Shown: positions 32,936 through 40,364 of the stretch, piece after piece
How positions within the stretch are numbered: position 1 is the first letter of the stretch
Layout of the letters: each line of letters starts with the position of its first letter
Virus record (IMG/VR): IMGVR_UViG_3300034159_000059
DNA length: 64,000 nt
Strand: one strand, 5' to 3'
DNA from: a virus
The notes under the pieces: generated by a model
Database searches by the model: none
The model's input: the letters and a program-made list of their open reading frames with translations, nothing else
What the model was told of the DNA's origin: nothing
Program-made: the position numbers and the translations under genes

Positions 32936-34555
32936 ATGGATGTGGTTCGGACTCTGATCGAGAAGGTCAAGGCGGGCTATCCAGCCCTGTACATGCTGAC
33001 TCCGGAGGATGCCAGAGCTACTGCTTGTATCGAAGCGGCAGCAGACAAGATGAATTCCACCTCCTCGGGACCGGAGAAGGTGGAGCGCAAGGTCTACATC
33101 TGGACGCTTGAGAAAGGACTCACCCTCAAGGAAGAGGAGAAGACGGGAGCCAAGAAAGGAAAAATAACCACCAAGGTGGTCGCAGACTCCGGAAGCCCTG
33201 ACACAGCGCTGGTGAAGGCCCACGATCTTCCCCAGGGAGCGATCGTAGTGCTGCGACACTACCACCACTTCCTGGAGTCCCCCGCCATCCAGGCCCTGCT
33301 CCTCGACCTCCTGCCGCTGTTCAAGGGGACGCGCCGACAGATCATCGTCCTCACTCCCGTCCTGAAGCTTCCGGTTGAGTTGGAGAAGGAGTTCTCCCTC
33401 GTCGAAGTCCCGCTGCCGACGAAGGAGGAGTTGTTCCCGATCGTCGACTCCTTCGCCACGAACTTCCCCGAGCCTACCCCGGAAGCTCGCAAGCAGCTCG
33501 CCGAGAACGCCCGGGGGCTCACACTCACCGAAGCTGAGAATGCCATCGCCCTTTCGGTCATCCGGCCCAACAACGGCAAGAAAGGTCCCGTCATCTGGGA
33601 CCCCAAGGTCGTGCAGGATGAGAAGTGCGATACGGTGAAGAAGAGTGGGTTTCTCACCTACTACCCCGAGCACAGCATCGGCCTCGAACAGCTCGGCGGC
33701 ATGAAGCTCCTCAAGGACTGGCTCCAGAAGCGCGCCAAGGTCTTCCAGGAGCCCGAGAAGGCGGCGGAGTTCGGACTGCCCATCCCCAAGGGCGTTCTCA
33801 TGCTGGGGCCTCCTGGGACGGGCAAGTCGCTCGGTGCTAAGGTGACCGCGTCCGCGTTCGGGCTACCCCTCATCCGGGTCGACATGGGCTCCATCTTCGG
33901 CGGCATCGTTGGCCAGTCCGAGGCGAATGCCCGAGCGGTCATCCGCTTCCTCGAAGCCGTCTCTCCCTGCATCGGCTGGTTGGATGAAATCGAGAAGGGC
34001 TTCGCAGGCTCCAGCGGCGGCCAGCTCGACTCGGGTGTTGGTGCTCGCGTGCTTGGCACCTTCCTCACCTGGATGCAGGAGAAGACCGCTCCGGTCTTCA
34101 TCTACGCCACTGCGAACAACGTGTCCGTTCTCCCTCCCGAGCTTCTTCGGAAGGGCCGCTTCGATGAGATGTTCTTCGTCAACCTCCCTTCCAGGGAAGA
34201 GCGCGAAGAGATCTTCCGCATCCACATCAAGCGCTACGGAAGAGAGGCCATGCTCTCAGGGGCCGAGGGGAAGCCTCCTCGGGTCCACGTGAAGCAGCTT
34301 GCCGAGATGACCGAAGGCTACTCGGGCGCTGAGATCGAGGCCGTCATCCGAGACGCGCTCTTCGACTCCTTCCAGGCCGGAGCAGACCTCAACATGATGG
34401 ATCTGCAAGAAGTCATGACGTATGTGGTGCCGCTTCAGAAGCTCATGGAGAGGGAGATCAAGGATCTCCAGAAGTGGGCTGAGGGACGTTGCCGACCGGC
34501 GAACCTCGGCGATGTCTACGATGGCAAGAAGGGGACCCGCGTCGTCGAATCGTAA
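32936..34555 (+). CDS. AAA+ ATPase (classical CDC48/FtsH-type AAA module) with unique N-terminal domain
   Basis: Walker A GPPGTGKS, Walker B GWLDEIEK, second region of homology [21 protein letters not shown]; 539 aa. Confidence 0.8.
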
Positions 34556-34627
34556 GGTGTCGTACATCCGCTATACAATGGGTCAGCTCCTGACGCTAGG
34601 AGCTGACCCGTCCTTTCAGGAGAACGC

Positions 34628-37711: not shown

Positions 37712-37808
37712 ACGACCTCAGCGACTGCGCGGAAGTCTTCACAGTTTCCGGTCATAAGAAACTGAGCGGTAATTCTGCTGTTAGTCAACCAGCAACGAAG
37801 GAGCAAGG

Positions 37809-40364
37809 ATGGCACAGGAGCCGAAGAGCAGAGAGACGAGGGAGCTTGCGCTCCCTCCGGGAAGCTACGTCTACACCCAGGATGTCATGAAGGGCGGCAT
37901 CAAGGTGTACGTGGGCCCGACGGTTGTGAATCCCACCGGCCAGGAGGTTCCGATCATCTTCGACGCAGGGACCGGACAGTTCCGCCAGTGCGATTCTCTC
38001 GAAGAAGCGCGGCGCGGATGTCCTGGCGCAGAGGAGGGGTACTACATCATCCTCTCCAACCCGTCCATCGACGAGAAGGAGGAACACCCGGTCCCGAACA
38101 CGCAGCGCTTCTCTGCCGAGCTCAGCCTCGGGCGCAGGGTCGTCATCCCCGGACCGACCTCCTTCGCCCTCTGGCCTCAGCAGCTCGCCAAGGTCGTTCA
38201 GGGACACCACCTTCGCTCGAACCAGTACCTCCTGGTTCGGATCTACAACGAAGAGCAGGCCAAGAAGAAGTGGACCACCGGAGTCGTGAAGCCGGCGACT
38301 CTGGGAGGGGAAGTGGCAACCAGCACCCCTTCCTCGGCTCCGGAAGATCTCACCATCGGGAAGCTGATCATCATCCCCGGGACCCAAGTCTCCTTCTACA
38401 TCCCGCCGACCGGCGTGGAGGTCGTCGAGGCTGACGGCAAGTACGTCAGGGAGGCTCTCACTCTGGAGCGGCTGGAGTACGCCATCCTCGTCGACGAGAA
38501 CGGCAAGAAGCGCTTCGAGAAGGGTCCGCAGGTGGTCTTCCCCAAGCCGACCGAGACGTTCCTCGAAATGCCGGACGACAAGGGGAAGCTGACCAAGAAG
38601 TTCCGAGCCATCGACCTCAACGAGATCTCCGGCATCTACGTCAAGGTGATCGCCGACTACGAGGAAGGCGAGGGAGACGCGAAGAGGAAGTACAAGACCG
38701 GCGAGGAGCTCTTCATCACCGGCAAGGACACGGCCATCTACTACCCGCGCGAGGAGCACTCCATCGTCAAGTACGATGGGCAGGCCAAGAACTTCGCCAC
38801 TGCCATCCCGGCCGGCGAAGCGCGGTACGTCCTCATCCGGAACACGGGCCAGATCAAGAAGATCTCTGGCCCGGCGATGCTCCTTCCCGATCCCCGCACG
38901 GAGGTCATCGTTCGAAGGGTGCTGTCTGACAAGCAATGCCAGCTCTGGTACCCAGGAGACGAGGAGGTGCTGGATTACAACCGAAGCCTCCGGATCATCT
39001 CCAAGTCCTCTCCTACCACAAGGGCTGGGGCCGTCACGGAAGGCGAGATCGCTCGCCGCATGAAGAGCAAGAGCATCGGCGGCCAGACGTTGATCGCATC
39101 GGCCAACTACTCATCCGCCGCGATGGAACAGAGCATGGTGAATCGGGACCAGGCTGTCGTCGGCGAGGAGATCTCTCGCGCCTCGACGTACACCCAGCCC
39201 CGTACCGTCACGCTGGACACCAAGAACCAAGGTGCCCCGTCCATCGACATCCCGGTGGGCTACGCCGTGCTGGTGGTCGACGCCAGCGGCAAGCGGCGCG
39301 TCGTGAAGGGTCCTGCGACGGTTCTCCTGGAGTACGACGAGGATCTCGAAACGCTGACGCTGTCGAGCGGGAAGCCCAAGACCACGGACAACCTCATCAC
39401 GGCCGTCCGGCTGCGTACCGACAACAACAAGGTCTCGGACAAGATGGTGGTGGAGACCTACGATCACGTCAGGGTCGAGGTCTACCTGTCGTACCGGGTG
39501 ACGTTCGATTCCTCGTTCGAGGATCGGTGGTTCTCCGTCGAGAACTACGTGAAGTTCCTCTGCGACCACGTCCGGTCGATCCTCAAGGGCTCCGTGCGGA
39601 AGCTCTCGATCGAGGAGTTCTACACCAACTCAACGGACATCATCCGTACCCTCGTCCTCGGACTGCCGAGCGAGTCAGGCGAGCGTCCGGGCATGCTGTT
39701 CCATGAGAACGGGATGCGCGTTCTCGATCTGGAGGTGCTCTCTGTCAGCATCGCTGACGAGAACATCAAGTCGATCCTCGACAAGTCGCAATTCGACGTG
39801 GTCCGCACCAACGTGGACCTCGCGAACGCTCAGCGTACTCTGGCGACAACCAAGATCAAGCAGCAGATCGTCAAGGAGGAGGCCGAGGTCCTCGCAGCCG
39901 TCCAGAAGCGCAGAGACGAGCTGTCCATCGACGCGGCGGCCAGCTCCCTCGTCGTCTCTCTGAGCAAGATCTCGAACGCGCTCAAGGAGAACGAGCAGCA
40001 GCAGGCGCTCGATACGAAGACCATCGAGCGCCAGAGCATCAACCTGGAAGCCAGGCTCGAAGCGAAGGACAAGGAGGAGCAGCAACTCATCAAGCACCTC
40101 CAGGCGGAGAACGACGCGAAGGCGGAGTACCACAAGGCCGAAGCCGAACTGCTCATCGCCAAGATGAAGGCCATGGAAGGTCCTCTCACCGAGGCTCTCC
40201 TGGCGCTCAGCAACAACGAGGTGCTGGTCAAGGTGGCGGAGGCAACCGACGTTCTCCGGATCGCCGGTGGGAACAGCGTGGTCGAGGTCCTCTCGAAGAT
40301 CGTGGCGGGGTCTCCGCTGGAGGCCACCATGCACAAGCTGCTCGGACCTCCTCTCGTCAAGTAG
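37809..40364 (+). CDS. Major Vault Protein (MVP) homologue
   Basis: 851 aa; LALPPGSYVYTQDVMKGGIKVYVGPTVV vs human MVP [29 protein letters not shown]; repeated GxxxYxPxxxVEVV-like beta repeats; shoulder YDHVRVEVYLSYRVTF vs ADHARLQLQLAYNWHF; long C-terminal coiled coil (cap-helix-like). Confidence 0.8.
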   Translation: MAQEPKSRETRELALPPGSYVYTQDVMKGGIKVYVGPTVVNPTGQEVPIIFDAGTGQFRQCDSLEEARRGCPGAEEGYYIILSNPSIDEKEEHPVPNTQRFSAELSLGRRVVIPGPTSFALWPQQLAKVVQGHHLRSNQYLLVRIYNEEQAKKKWTTGVVKPATLGGEVATSTPSSAPEDLTIGKLIIIPGTQVSFYIPPTGVEVVEADGKYVREALTLERLEYAILVDENGKKRFEKGPQVVFPKPTETFLEMPDDKGKLTKKFRAIDLNEISGIYVKVIADYEEGEGDAKRKYKTGEELFITGKDTAIYYPREEHSIVKYDGQAKNFATAIPAGEARYVLIRNTGQIKKISGPAMLLPDPRTEVIVRRVLSDKQCQLWYPGDEEVLDYNRSLRIISKSSPTTRAGAVTEGEIARRMKSKSIGGQTLIASANYSSAAMEQSMVNRDQAVVGEEISRASTYTQPRTVTLDTKNQGAPSIDIPVGYAVLVVDASGKRRVVKGPATVLLEYDEDLETLTLSSGKPKTTDNLITAVRLRTDNNKVSDKMVVETYDHVRVEVYLSYRVTFDSSFEDRWFSVENYVKFLCDHVRSILKGSVRKLSIEEFYTNSTDIIRTLVLGLPSESGERPGMLFHENGMRVLDLEVLSVSIADENIKSILDKSQFDVVRTNVDLANAQRTLATTKIKQQIVKEEAEVLAAVQKRRDELSIDAAASSLVVSLSKISNALKENEQQQALDTKTIERQSINLEARLEAKDKEEQQLIKHLQAENDAKAEYHKAEAELLIAKMKAMEGPLTEALLALSNNEVLVKVAEATDVLRIAGGNSVVEVLSKIVAGSPLEATMHKLLGPPLVK

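What the first reader, a model, noticed from the sequence alone, without database searches (positions are those of the whole stretch)
32936..40364. Conserved-looking module: AAA+ ATPase - DUF1257 - tagged SWIM protein - DUF2997 x2 - MVP
Directly upstream of the MVP gene, on the same strand with short gaps, lie five genes: a classical AAA+ ATPase (32936-34555); a DUF1257 protein (34628-35098); the 661-aa tagged SWIM-finger protein; a DUF2997 protein (37106-37306); and a DUF2997-like paralogue with a Cys-rich tail (37400-37711). DUF1257 and DUF2997 are a recurrent gene pair of unknown function in bacteria. Their placement between an unfoldase-type ATPase and a shell protein suggests an assembly or cargo-loading operon.
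Basis: partly seen in the sequence, partly recalled or inferred. Interest (0 to 1): 0.8.

Follow-up and report, generated by a model that had tools for sequence, protein, structure and literature searches.

The report
Two unrelated phage modules, side by side
The six genes are real, but they are two separate modules in a huge phage genome, a widespread ATPase cassette of unknown function and a vault-protein/RNA-ligase repair pair, and not one operon for building or loading a vault shell.

Summary
All six ORFs exist as described. Profile searches confirm the AAA+ ATPase, DUF1257, DUF2997 and MVP. The SWIM finger shows only as a conserved CxCx15CxH signature. The "second DUF2997" is not a DUF2997. 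It is a small protein with a widespread Cys/His mini-domain that Pfam lacks.

Comparative genomics splits the region. AAA+–DUF1257–(SWIM protein)–DUF2997…DUF3150 is a conserved cassette, the phage version of the bacterial Ycf46/Ycf35/DUF2997 triad. It recurs in about nine related phage contigs, in roughly 40% of 80 viral AAA loci and in many bacteria, and MVP was within 8–10 kb in none of these 160 loci. Conversely, none of 80 phage MVP loci holds the cassette. They hold tRNA arrays and RNA-repair genes. In Myxococcota, MVP sits in an RtcR–RtcB–MVP operon.

Here MVP–RtcB lies in the variable slot between DUF2997 and DUF3150, flanked by two of the region's three strongest terminator-like hairpins.

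An unplanned result is a shared C-terminal tail (basic, two hydrophobic, acidic, hydrophobic). It ends the AAA+ family, the SWIM protein and DUF3150, and in this phage clade several more proteins. I read it as a docking peptide. This is inferred, not shown.

The cargo-loading reading is not supported. Interest is moderate.

The parts
32596..32934 (+). 112-aa ORF with no Pfam match. Its stop lies 1 nt before the AAA start. It is conserved upstream of the AAA gene in relatives.
   Evidence: tblastn hits in L006-L009 at E 3e-9 to 1e-34. No Pfam or PHROG hit.
32936..34555 (+). Ycf46-type AAA+ ATPase, 539 aa. It has a P-loop-less N-terminal AAA-like module (aa 1-236) and an active classical AAA module. 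Motifs: Walker A aa 291-298, Walker B 348-351, aliphatic pore loop GGIVGQSE 322-329, RKGRFD 405-410. It ends in a flexible tail, TRVVES.
   Evidence: Pfam AAA and lid. phrog_8638 at 1e-116. Full-length homologues at 36-44% identity in cyanobacteria and Myxococcota. AF2 model pLDDT 89. Foldseek match to the p97/Cdc48/VAT D1-D2 tandem, TMq about 0.6. Motif positions.
34628..35098 (+). DUF1257 (Ycf35-like) protein, 156 aa. Compact alpha+beta domain.
35108..37093 (+). 661-aa protein. The N-terminal ~420-500 aa are fast-evolving. The conserved C-terminal module holds a SWIM-type CxCx15CxH finger (nt 36842-36904), followed by a linker and the C-terminal tail KRIVEL (nt 37073-37090).
   Evidence: Only aa ~420-661 are conserved in L006, L008 and L009. 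Alignment of 10 homologues. Coordinates. No Pfam hit.
37106..37306 (+). DUF2997 protein, 66 aa. Last gene of the conserved cassette core.
   Evidence: Pfam 47.4 bits. phrog_23133. Found beside the AAA gene in 34/80 viral and 24/80 genome loci.
37330..37359 (+). Terminator-like hairpin (12 bp stem, 9 G-C pairs, T-rich tail). It separates the cassette core from the MVP unit.
   Evidence: Top-ranked + strand site in 30-46 kb. Sequence read.
37400..37711 (+). 103-aa ORF that is not a DUF2997. Its N-terminal 70 aa are unique. Its C-terminal Cys/His mini-domain CEHANEVPQTCPCPPNCYCKNHTC (nt 37628-37699) is found on hundreds of unrelated small proteins.
   Evidence: no DUF2997 similarity; 326 representatives at E<=1e-3; no Pfam family.
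37809..40364 (+). Major vault protein homologue, 851 aa.
   Evidence: Pfam MVP_shoulder and Vault_3. 52-56% identity over 97-100% of its length to Myxococcota and phage MVPs. Aligns to rat and human MVP over aa 477-789 at E about 1e-21.
40430..40457 (+). Terminator-like hairpin between MVP and RtcB.
   Evidence: 10 bp stem, 7 G-C pairs, T-rich tail.
40480..41661 (+). RtcB RNA ligase, 393 aa. It is the neighbour of MVP in both Myxococcota operons examined.
   Evidence: Pfam RtcB annotation on the identical contig. 51% identity to the RtcB next to MVP in L004. RtcR-RtcB-MVP order in L004 and L005.
42906..43940 (+). DUF3150 protein, 344 aa, ending in the tail KRVVEL (nt 43920-43937). It is the distal conserved member of the cassette. 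The slot between DUF2997 and DUF3150 is variable in relatives.
   Evidence: Pfam 29 bits. Present after DUF2997 in L006, L008, L009, L092-L094, L255 and L256. Tails.

Best explanation
The stretch is two independent modules that happen to abut in the accessory region of a huge phage. The contig is at least 209 kb and carries 43 tRNA genes and a tmRNA. The host is unknown; the nearest bacterial MVP relatives are from Myxococcota.

Module 1 runs from 32596 to 37306 and reaches on to DUF3150 at 42906-43940. It is the phage form of the widespread Ycf46/Ycf35(DUF1257)/DUF2997 triad.
- Its ATPase is Cdc48/p97-like, with a dead first AAA module and an active second one.
- It has two small obligate-looking partners, DUF1257 and DUF2997.
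- In this phage lineage it also has a SWIM-finger protein and DUF3150.

In many lineages the ATPase, the SWIM protein and DUF3150 end in the same kind of flexible C-terminal tail: Arg/Lys, two hydrophobic residues, Asp/Glu, then a hydrophobic residue at the C-terminus. In this clade the same tail has spread to several other proteins. I infer that the tail is a docking peptide that brings these proteins to one receptor inside the system. The receptor would be DUF1257, DUF2997 or the dead AAA module. On this view the ATPase remodels or releases tail-bearing clients, in a DNA replication/recombination setting.

Module 2 runs from 37400 to 41661: a small Cys-rich ORF, MVP and RtcB. It is an RNA (most likely tRNA) repair or protection unit of the Band-7/MVP-RtcB kind known from bacteria. 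It is inserted into the variable slot between DUF2997 and DUF3150.

Shown: the gene identities, the independent conservation of the two modules, their different genomic company, and the tail conservation. Inferred: the docking role of the tail, the remodelling activity, and RNA repair by MVP.
For: Cassette without MVP:
- Relatives L006/7, L008, L009, L092-L094 and L254-L256 keep AAA-DUF1257-(SWIM)-DUF2997...DUF3150, with no MVP or RtcB within 9-10 kb.
- MVP and RtcB are found in 0 of 80 viral and 0 of 80 genome AAA loci.

MVP without cassette:
- 0 of 80 IMG/VR MVP loci have DUF1257, SWIM, DUF2997, DUF3150 or RtcB. The single-sequence AAA search hits none and the iterated AAA profile hits one.
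- The closest MVPs (P0004, P0005) are stand-alone genes on phage contigs.

Different genomic company (MVP loci versus AAA loci, 80 each):
- tRNA genes: 38 versus 5, or 296 versus 20 tRNAs in total.
- RNA-repair families (RlaP, cREC_REC, AAA_33 kinase, DUF2828, RNA ligase, NADAR, Band_7, Thg1): 29 versus 0.
- Replication genes (DnaB, DnaC-like, primase, PolIII alpha, RecA-like): 4 versus 29.

Bacterial context of MVP: RtcR-RtcB-MVP in L004 and L005. This agrees with Burroughs & Aravind 2016 as cited in PMC13404743 and 10.1101/312249.

Terminators: two of the three strongest + strand sites in 30-46 kb fall after DUF2997 and after MVP; the third follows the ACP gene.

Both modules also occur about 18 kb apart on two related contigs.

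Tails:
- AAA C-termini include cyanobacterial YQR[ML]EF, Myxococcota GERKLEL, gut lineages RGGRALDL and Corndog gp96 RVLDL.
- In genome loci, tail against a DUF1257/DUF2997 neighbour gives 37/4 versus 10/29, Fisher 3e-9.
- The SWIM family and DUF3150 carry related tails across lineages.
- The strict motif occurs in 0 of 18,912 ORFs of the other viral loci.
- The AF2 tail has low pLDDT, consistent with a flexible tether.
Against: - Adjacency on one strand is real, and phage terminators are often leaky, so co-transcription is not excluded.
- Flanks of only 8-10 kb were examined, so MVP could lie elsewhere on relatives' genomes, as it does in two of them.
- DUF1257 and DUF2997 were detected with HMMs I built myself. 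Small divergent proteins can be missed, so the co-occurrence counts are lower bounds.
- The tail versus neighbour statistic is not corrected for phylogeny; about 25 of the loci are cyanobacteria.
- In the viral set the relation is inverse: 2/25 versus 33/20. Lineages with R-x-L-D-L tails pair the ATPase with other, unrelated partners.
- The window's own ATPase tail (TRVVES) is a degenerate version of the motif.
- The pore loop is aliphatic (G-I-V-G), so unfoldase activity is uncertain.
- No experiment or complex prediction supports the docking model.
- No tRNA-like RNA was found next to MVP here or in L004/L005.
Confidence: 0.72

Rival explanations
1. The ATPase, DUF1257 and DUF2997 assemble the MVP shell or load cargo into it, and the KRIVEL-type tags are cargo-loading peptides, as in encapsulins.
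For: Same strand and short gaps. A shell-forming protein lies next to an unfoldase-type ATPase. At least six proteins in the window share a C-terminal tag.
Against: The MVP/cassette separation and the intervening terminators are set out under the best explanation. In addition:
- Tags are kept on orthologues in L006, L009 and L254-L256, which have no MVP within 9-10 kb.
- The tail type is ancestral to the ATPase family in MVP-less loci, including cyanobacterial ones.
- To my knowledge, known MVPs self-assemble without an ATPase.
Confidence: 0.07
2. A lineage-specific functional coupling. The Ycf46-type cassette is itself an RNA or RNP quality-control machine, so RNA-repair scaffolds (MVP-RtcB here, Ro60/TROVE in a relative) are recruited next to it and work with it.
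For: - L255 has a TROVE+vWA_Ro60 gene about 2 kb upstream of the ATPase.
- MVP-RtcB lies inside the cassette here.
- The cyanobacterial ycf46 operon is anticorrelated with ribosomal gene expression and depends on (p)ppGpp (10.1101/2025.07.21.665879).
Against: - 0 of 80 viral AAA loci carry any of eight RNA-repair families, and only 5 of 80 carry tRNAs.
- The usual company is replication genes.
- Only two of about nine close relatives show such a neighbour.
Confidence: 0.12
3. The shared C-terminal tails are degradation or turnover tags rather than docking peptides. They would be degrons read by the ATPase with a host protease, or by a host protease alone, to time the removal of early proteins.
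For: - The motif sits at the extreme C-terminus after variable linkers.
- The ATPase is of the unfoldase clade.
- The phage also encodes a tmRNA, which shows investment in C-terminal tagging pathways.
Against: - The ATPase itself carries the tail in many lineages, which fits a tether better than a degron.
- No protease gene is conserved in the cassette.
- The tmRNA tag, read by eye as ANQPMVNEFRAAA, is unrelated to the motif.
Confidence: 0.09

Closest known systems
Ycf46 / Ycf35 (DUF1257) / DUF2997 gene cluster of cyanobacteria (Synechocystis slr0373-slr0374-slr0376; S. elongatus Synpcc7942_0416-0418)
   Same: - Full-length homology of the ATPase, including the dead N-terminal module: 36-40% identity over aa 11-523.
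- DUF1257 directly next to it.
- A DUF2997 partner in many non-cyanobacterial lineages.
- A conserved C-terminal tail on the ATPase.
- Function unknown in the literature: a stress operon that is (p)ppGpp- and RpaB-dependent and whose ATPase interacts with KaiC (PMC7496141; 10.1101/2025.07.21.665879).
   Different: - Encoded by a phage.
- Has an extra SWIM-finger protein between DUF1257 and DUF2997, and a linked DUF3150 gene.
- The tail motif has spread to other proteins.
- The ATPase's own tail is degenerate (TRVVES).
- Sits among DNA-metabolism genes (ligase-like, YpsA/DprA-like, exonuclease).
Cdc48 / p97 / VAT type-II AAA+ unfoldases
   Same: - Tandem D1-D2 fold, TMq about 0.6 over about 575 columns.
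- The D2-like module has the best sequence match, E 1e-53.
- Intact Walker A, Walker B and Arg fingers.
- A flexible C-terminal tail. From my own knowledge, the p97 tail binds PUB/PUL cofactors and the archaeal Cdc48 HbYX tail docks the 20S proteasome.
   Different: - No N-terminal double-psi-barrel substrate domain.
- D1 lacks a P-loop.
- Pore loop 1 is aliphatic (G-I-V-G), not aromatic.
- The tail motif differs.
- The partners are DUF1257 and DUF2997, not UBX or Npl4-type adaptors.
Band-7/MVP-RtcB RNA-repair systems of bacteria (Burroughs & Aravind 2016, as cited in PMC13404743 and 10.1101/312249)
   Same: - MVP directly next to RtcB.
- 51-54% identity to both genes of the Myxococcota RtcR-RtcB-MVP operons.
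- Other RNA-repair genes in the window: RlaP, an Rv2179c-like exoribonuclease and a ligase-like gene.
   Different: - The gene order is inverted (MVP then RtcB), with a terminator-like hairpin between them.
- No RtcR regulator.
- No adjacent tRNA-like RNA detected.
- Phage-borne.
Eukaryotic vault particle (MVP, TEP1, PARP4, vault RNA)
   Same: - MVP shoulder, repeat and cap-helix region align to rat and human MVP over aa 477-789.
- Other phage MVP loci carry vault-like company. A PARP catalytic-domain gene and a Macro gene lie near MVP in LR756500. A DUF2828+DUF7788 protein lies just upstream of MVP in many loci; that this protein is TROVE-related is my recollection and was not tested.
   Different: - No TEP1, PARP4 or vault RNA identified in this window.
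- Particle formation by prokaryotic or phage MVPs is untested.
- Only one MVP repeat is recognised by Pfam.
Encapsulin cargo-loading peptides
   Same: A short C-terminal peptide shared by several otherwise unrelated proteins encoded near a shell-type protein.
   Different: - The shell here is MVP, not an HK97-fold encapsulin.
- The tag is also on the ATPase family in organisms without MVP.
- The tag is on orthologues in MVP-less loci.

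Membership tests
Ycf46/DUF1257/DUF2997 triad | Ycf46-type AAA+ ATPase homologous over its full length, including the N-terminal non-P-loop module | tested here: met
   36-44% identity over aa ~11-523 to cyanobacterial, Myxococcota and other homologues. JGI names relatives 'SpoVK/Ycf46/Vps4 family'.
Ycf46/DUF1257/DUF2997 triad | DUF1257 (Ycf35-like) gene adjacent on the same strand | tested here: met
   Pfam 25.2 bits against a cut-off of 22.2. The family HMM hits ycf46-adjacent genes in cyanobacteria at about 1e-18 to 1e-22.
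Ycf46/DUF1257/DUF2997 triad | DUF2997 gene in the same cluster | tested here: met
   Pfam 47.4 bits. DUF2997 is near the ATPase in 34/80 viral and 24/80 genome loci.
Ycf46/DUF1257/DUF2997 triad | C-terminal tail on the ATPase: Arg/Lys at -5 or -4, hydrophobic at -3, Asp/Glu at -2, hydrophobic at -1 (a feature I propose) | tested here: inconclusive
   The window ATPase ends TRVVES. Arg and the two hydrophobic residues are kept, but the last residue is Ser. Relatives end GRAVQA, ARSVQV or GRRIDA.
Ycf46/DUF1257/DUF2997 triad | Stress or (p)ppGpp-dependent induction as in cyanobacteria | not testable with these tools
   Expression data would be needed. Literature only.
Classical-clade AAA+ protein unfoldase (Cdc48/p97/VAT-like) | Walker A, Walker B and second-region-of-homology arginines | tested here: met
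   GPPGTGKS 291-298, WLDE 348-351, RKGRFD 405-410. PF00004 at 86.6 bits.
Classical-clade AAA+ protein unfoldase (Cdc48/p97/VAT-like) | Aromatic-hydrophobic-Gly pore loop 1 | tested here: not met
   The loop is G-I-V-G here and G-L-V-G in the family consensus. It is aliphatic, which from my own knowledge resembles p97 D1 rather than D2.
Classical-clade AAA+ protein unfoldase (Cdc48/p97/VAT-like) | Tandem D1-D2 architecture with an N-terminal substrate/adaptor domain | tested here: inconclusive
   The D1-D2 tandem is supported and D1 has no P-loop. No separate N-domain exists; the protein starts at D1.
Major vault protein | MVP shoulder domain, MVP repeats and cap-helix region | tested here: met
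   MVP_shoulder at 96.3 bits and Vault_3 at 40.3 bits. Alignment to solved MVPs over aa 477-789. 52-56% identity over 97-100% of its length to proteins that JGI names 'major vault protein'.
Major vault protein | Assembly into a closed, 39-fold half-vault shell | not testable with these tools
   Needs expression and electron microscopy. No multimer prediction was available.
Band-7/MVP-RtcB RNA-repair system | RtcB RNA ligase encoded next to the MVP/Band-7 gene | tested here: met
   RtcB lies at 40480-41661, 116 nt after MVP. The same pairing occurs in L004 and L005.
Band-7/MVP-RtcB RNA-repair system | Associated tRNA-like non-coding RNA (b7a-tRNA) next to the pair | tested here: not met
   ARAGORN finds no tRNA between 25284 and 64000 and none in L004 or L005. 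Rfam finds only the tmRNA in 26-48 kb. A divergent RNA could be missed.
Band-7/MVP-RtcB RNA-repair system | RtcR sigma-54 activator upstream | tested here: not met
   Present in L004 and L005. Absent from the gene list of the identical contig around MVP. This is expected for a phage copy.
SWIM zinc-finger proteins | CxCxnCxH signature recognised by the family profile | tested here: inconclusive
   The signature is present and conserved in about 10 homologues, but Pfam SWIM is not reported at E<=0.1.
DUF2997 (for ORF 37400-37711) | Significant match to the DUF2997 profile | tested here: not met
   No Pfam hit. hmmsearch gives 0.8 bits and hhalign probability 0.6%. All relatives match only the C-terminal Cys/His motif.
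Encapsulin-type cargo loading | Targeting peptide present only on cargo co-inherited with the shell gene | tested here: not met
   The tag is kept in L006, L009 and L254-L256 without MVP within 9-10 kb. The motif type is present on Ycf46 ATPases of many bacteria.

The most novel reading that the evidence does not exclude
The C-terminal tail (Arg/Lys, two hydrophobic residues, Asp/Glu, then a hydrophobic residue at the C-terminus) is a previously unrecognised peptide-docking code of the Ycf46 AAA+ system. It is conserved from cyanobacteria and Myxococcota to phages. Huge phages of this clade have copied it onto a set of client proteins: the SWIM-finger protein, DUF3150, a YpsA/DprA-like protein and others. 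This would build a hub-and-tails network around the ATPase/DUF1257/DUF2997 core. If true, it gives the first biochemical handle on the long-unexplained ycf46 stress operon.
Probability: 0.3. Interest if true: 0.65.

Novelty: new variant of a known kind. Interest (0 to 1): 0.5.

Why it matters
There are three reasons, none of them the one first proposed.

1. **A clean negative.** Proximity of an unfoldase-type ATPase to a shell protein invites a cargo-loading story. Comparative genomics rules out that link as a conserved one.

2. **A handle on ycf46.** The ATPase cassette is the phage counterpart of the ycf46 operon, one of the most strongly stress-induced and least understood operons of cyanobacteria. 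The shared C-terminal tail gives a simple, testable hypothesis for how its parts meet.

3. **A route to vault function.** MVP turns out to be common in large phages: 219 IMG/VR contigs in one scan, against two gut phages in the 2023 preprint I found. It sits with tRNA arrays and RNA-repair enzymes. This extends the bacterial MVP-RtcB link. It also offers a tractable phage/bacterium system for the decades-old question of what vault proteins do.

Tried and rejected
- **Single-sequence scan of IMG/VR with MVP** found nothing. An alignment was needed.
- **Greedy ORF calling by length** lost small real genes to antisense ORFs. I replaced it with stop-to-stop ORFs.
- **My 'p112' HMM drifted** onto overlapping frames and was ignored.
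- **ORF 37400-37711 as a DUF2997 paralogue** was rejected.
- **Small ORFs next to the closest phage MVPs** (L252, L253) were tested as relatives of that ORF. There was no similarity.
- **Unannotated ATPase neighbours in other phages** (about 289 aa and about 134 aa, Corndog gp95/gp94-like) were tested as divergent DUF1257, DUF2997, SWIM or DUF3150 proteins. hhalign found nothing.
- **A link between the tmRNA tag and the KRIVEL tag** was rejected. The tag reads ANQPMVNEFRAAA.
- **PDB sequence searches** for DUF1257, the SWIM protein and DUF3150 gave no significant hit.
- **The afdb50 library** was unavailable.
- **PADLOC** gave only generic AAA (IetA) matches, so a defence-system reading was dropped.
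- **Burroughs & Aravind 2016** (PMC5062991) is not held. It is cited only through papers that quote it.
- **The tail versus partner association** holds in the cellular genome loci but is reversed in the viral set. I report it as unresolved, not as proof.

Full report
**1. What is there**

- 32936-34555 (539 aa)
- 34628-35098 (156 aa)
- 35108-37093 (661 aa, GTG start)
- 37106-37306 (66 aa)
- 37400-37711 (103 aa)
- 37809-40364 (851 aa)

Third-codon-position GC of 0.66-0.90 supports all of them as coding. The same gene calls appear on a public contig that holds this exact sequence. The MVP is on record on contigs of 23 kb and 209 kb.

The window is phage-like:
- It has 43 tRNA genes between 4993 and 25284.
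- It has a tmRNA at 44273-44651 (Rfam 114 bits).
- Its MVP matches the 462-735 kb 'uncultured phage' genomes LR756500/501/503 and many IMG/VR contigs.

**2. Identity of each gene**

Pfam gives:
- AAA at 86.6 bits plus AAA_lid_3
- DUF1257 at 25.2 bits (cut-off 22.2)
- DUF2997 at 47.4 bits
- MVP_shoulder at 96.3 bits plus Vault_3 at 40.3 bits

*The ATPase.* It belongs to phrog_8638 (1e-116). Sources name its relatives 'SpoVK/Ycf46/Vps4 family'. Its AlphaFold model (pLDDT 89) shows two alpha/beta AAA-type modules. It superposes on the p97/Cdc48/VAT D1-D2 tandem with TMq about 0.6 over about 575 columns.
- The first module has no P-loop.
- The second has Walker A GPPGTGKS, Walker B WLDE and RKGRFD arginines.
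- The pore loop is aliphatic, G-I-V-G.

*The 661-aa protein.* It has no Pfam hit. Its C-terminal ~160-240 residues are conserved in relatives and carry a CxCx15CxH SWIM-type signature (aa 579-599), followed by a linker and the tail KRIVEL.

*The 103-aa ORF.* It is not a DUF2997: hmmsearch gives 0.8 bits and hhalign probability 0.6%. A search of 1.84 billion representatives finds 326 proteins at E<=1e-3. All of them match only its last ~30 residues, F-C-E-H-A-N-E-x-P-x2-C-x-C-x3-C-Y-C-K-x-H-T-C. This motif sits at either end of otherwise unrelated proteins and has no Pfam family.

**3. Is the gene order conserved? The ATPase side**

Relatives of the ATPase and of DUF1257 were followed to their contigs: L006/7, L008, L009, L092-L094 and L254-L256. 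These keep the order (ligase-like, YpsA/DprA-like ...) - small ORF - AAA - DUF1257 - (SWIM protein) - DUF2997 - variable slot - DUF3150.

The slot between DUF2997 and DUF3150 varies:
- It holds no gene in L008 and L092-L094.
- It holds one small ORF in L256.
- It holds six to ten unrelated ORFs in L255 and L009.
- Only in this window does it hold the Cys-rich ORF, MVP, RtcB and three small ORFs.

More widely, an alignment-based scan found 367 IMG/VR contigs and more than 565 genome contigs with the ATPase. Detection used HMMs that I built iteratively, so the counts below are lower bounds.

| Set (80 loci each) | DUF1257 | DUF2997 | MVP | RtcB |
|---|---|---|---|---|
| Viral AAA loci | 32 | 34 | 0 | 0 |
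| Genome AAA loci | 37 | 24 | 0 | 0 |

The genome hits include cyanobacteria, where this is ycf46 with DUF1257 directly downstream. They also include Myxococcota such as Kofleriaceae, with the order DUF1257-AAA-DUF2997.

The literature knows this cluster only as a stress operon of unknown function. Examples are slr0373-0374-0376 (PMC7496141) and Synpcc7942_0416-0418, which is (p)ppGpp- and RpaB-dependent (10.1101/2025.07.21.665879). A DUF2997-ycf35-fed7 cluster is also noted in PMC4284462.

**4. Is the gene order conserved? The MVP side**

The closest MVPs (52-56% identity) come from two sources:
- Myxococcota/Kofleriaceae MAGs. In two chromosomal loci the order is RtcR (divergent) - RtcB - MVP.
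- Other phage contigs, where MVP stands alone. L252 has capsid genes and 29 tRNAs; L253 is the other.

An alignment scan found 219 IMG/VR contigs with MVP. In the 80 loci kept (±10 kb):
- The single-sequence search found none of the window's AAA, DUF1257, SWIM, DUF2997, DUF3150 or RtcB families.
- The iterated AAA and SWIM profiles each hit one of them.

The recurrent neighbours are instead:
- RlaP
- metallophosphoesterases
- cREC_REC
- AAA_33 kinase
- a DUF2828+DUF7788 protein just upstream of MVP
- RNA ligase
- NADAR
- Band_7/flotillin
- Thg1

Two contigs carry both modules, about 18 kb apart (L013/L093 and L040/L094).

**5. The two modules keep different company**

| Feature (80 loci each) | MVP loci | AAA loci |
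|---|---|---|
| At least one tRNA gene | 38 | 5 |
| Total tRNA genes | 296 | 20 |
| Any of eight RNA-repair families | 29 | 0 |
| Replication genes | 4 | 29 |

In 19 MVP loci the nearest tRNA lies within 2 kb of MVP. The replication genes counted are DnaB, DnaC/IstB-like, primase, PolIII alpha and RecA-like.

One caution applies. The family HMMs were built from one set and searched in the other. The families are broad, though, and the contrast is large.

Within the window, two of the three strongest + strand terminator-like hairpins in 30-46 kb fall after DUF2997 (37330-37359) and after MVP (40430-40457); the third falls after the ACP gene (44238-44263).

**6. The C-terminal tail**

Six window ORFs end in K-R-[IV]-V-E-[LV], with stop codons ending at 3465, 20025, 29897, 30574, 37093 and 43940. 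The ATPase ends TRVVES.

- The strict motif is absent from 18,912 ORFs of the other viral loci.
- It is kept on orthologues (YpsA-like, SWIM protein, DUF3150 and others) in L006, L009, L254 and L255, with near-matches ending EID in L256. None of these has MVP nearby.
- Looser versions end the SWIM family and DUF3150 in more distant lineages: GRVITL, GRVIDIE, SRVMDVE, KRKLDL.

The ATPase family itself ends in the same kind of tail after a variable linker:
- cyanobacteria: YQR[ML]EF
- Myxococcota: GERKLEL
- gut lineages: RGGRALDL
- Dactylosporangium: GRTLEI
- mycobacteriophage Corndog gp96: RVLDL

In the genome loci the tail goes with a DUF1257/DUF2997 neighbour: 37 of 41 loci with a tail, against 10 of 39 without. 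Fisher's test gives 3e-9, not corrected for phylogeny.

In the viral set the relation is reversed: 2 of 27 against 33 of 53. Lineages with R-x-L-D-L tails pair the ATPase with other partners, of about 289 aa and about 134 aa. I could not relate these to DUF1257, DUF2997, SWIM or DUF3150.

I therefore treat the tail as a real, conserved feature of the system. I treat its reading as a docking peptide as an inference. The inference rests on analogy with the C-terminal tails of p97 and archaeal Cdc48, which is my own knowledge. The low pLDDT of the model's last 20 residues fits a flexible tether.

**7. Most likely mechanism**

*Module 1.* This is a Ycf46-type remodelling ATPase with DUF1257 and DUF2997 as core partners. 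In this phage clade, tail-bearing proteins (the SWIM-finger protein, DUF3150, a YpsA/DprA-like protein and others) are brought to the same receptor. This probably happens in a DNA replication/recombination setting. Only the composition and the conservation are shown. Activity, receptor and clients are inferred.

*Module 2.* MVP with RtcB matches the Band-7/MVP-RtcB RNA-repair systems described for bacteria (quoted in PMC13404743 and 10.1101/312249). The phage carries 43 tRNAs, RlaP, an exoribonuclease, a ligase-like gene and a tmRNA. The plain reading is therefore protection or repair of the translation RNA pool against host nucleases. How MVP contributes, whether as a scaffold or as a shell, is unknown.

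**8. Verdict**

Exceptions are the second 'DUF2997' and the claim of a conserved module reaching MVP.

The ATPase-DUF1257-DUF2997 link is real and old. The link to MVP is an accident of insertion in this lineage, or at most a local novelty.

Limits of this analysis:
- Flanks of only 8-10 kb were examined.
- Detection of small proteins relied on my own HMMs.
- No complex prediction or experiment was available.

Both modules belong to known kinds. The phage cassette adds conserved parts and a tail network that I did not find described.

Noticed in passing
window 2536-3465, 19780-20025, 29271-29897, 29900-30574, 35108-37093, 42906-43940 (ATPase 32936-34555 is degenerate): Six ORFs end in K-R-[IV]-V-E-[LV]. 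The motif is absent from 18,912 ORFs of other viral loci. It is kept on orthologues in related phage contigs (L006, L009, L254-L256). Similar tails end the Ycf46 ATPase family from cyanobacteria to phages.
   Followed up: partly
window 37628-37699 (C-terminus of ORF 37400-37711): Cys/His mini-domain CEHANEVPQTCPCPPNCYCKNHTC. 326 cluster representatives carry it at either end of unrelated proteins, sometimes twice. It has no Pfam family and is probably a mobile zinc-binding module.
   Followed up: partly
window 4993-25284: Array of 43 tRNA genes on the + strand. It includes one with a CTA anticodon (amber-reading; ARAGORN labels it tRNA-Pyl) at 4993-5068. This may be a suppressor, or a sign of stop-codon reassignment.
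   Followed up: no
window 44273-44651 (+): Phage-encoded tmRNA (Rfam RF00023, 114 bits) that ARAGORN missed. The tag, read by eye, is ANQPMVNEFRAAA. A strong terminator-like hairpin (44238-44263) precedes it.
   Followed up: partly
window 11647-12612, 14249-15739, 3746-4960, 30579-31115, 43955-44230: Further accessory genes: RlaP (an RNA-repair nucleotidyltransferase) inside the tRNA array, a second and different AAA ATPase of 496 aa, adenylosuccinate synthetase, an Rv2179c-like 3'-5' exoribonuclease, and an acyl-carrier protein.
   Followed up: no
L012-L091 (IMG/VR MVP loci); L002 = LR756500.1 8946-35363: MVP is common in large phages: 219 IMG/VR contigs. It sits in RNA-repair islands next to tRNA arrays. 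In LR756500 a PARP catalytic-domain gene (L002 4493-5767) and a Macro-domain gene (15656-16435) flank it, recalling PARP4 of eukaryotic vaults. A DUF2828+DUF7788 protein lies just upstream of MVP in many loci.
   Followed up: partly
L255 4076-5788: A close relative of the cassette has a Ro60-type TROVE+vWA gene about 2 kb upstream of the ATPase. So a second kind of RNA quality-control scaffold has landed near the same cassette.
   Followed up: no
L095-L171; L011 = Mycobacterium phage Corndog 53403-64581; L010 = Rhodobacter phage RcTiptonus: In other phage lineages the same ATPase family sits beside DnaB, DnaC-like, primase, PolIII alpha, RecA-like and ParB genes. In 24-26 loci it is followed by two unannotated proteins of about 289 aa and about 134 aa (Corndog gp95/gp94-like). 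RcTiptonus gp63 is a DUF2997.
   Followed up: partly
window 34580-34612: Hairpin GGGTCAGCTCC-n11-GGAGCTGACCC between the ATPase and DUF1257. Its T tail is too weak for the terminator scan. It may be an attenuator or an RNA processing site.
   Followed up: no
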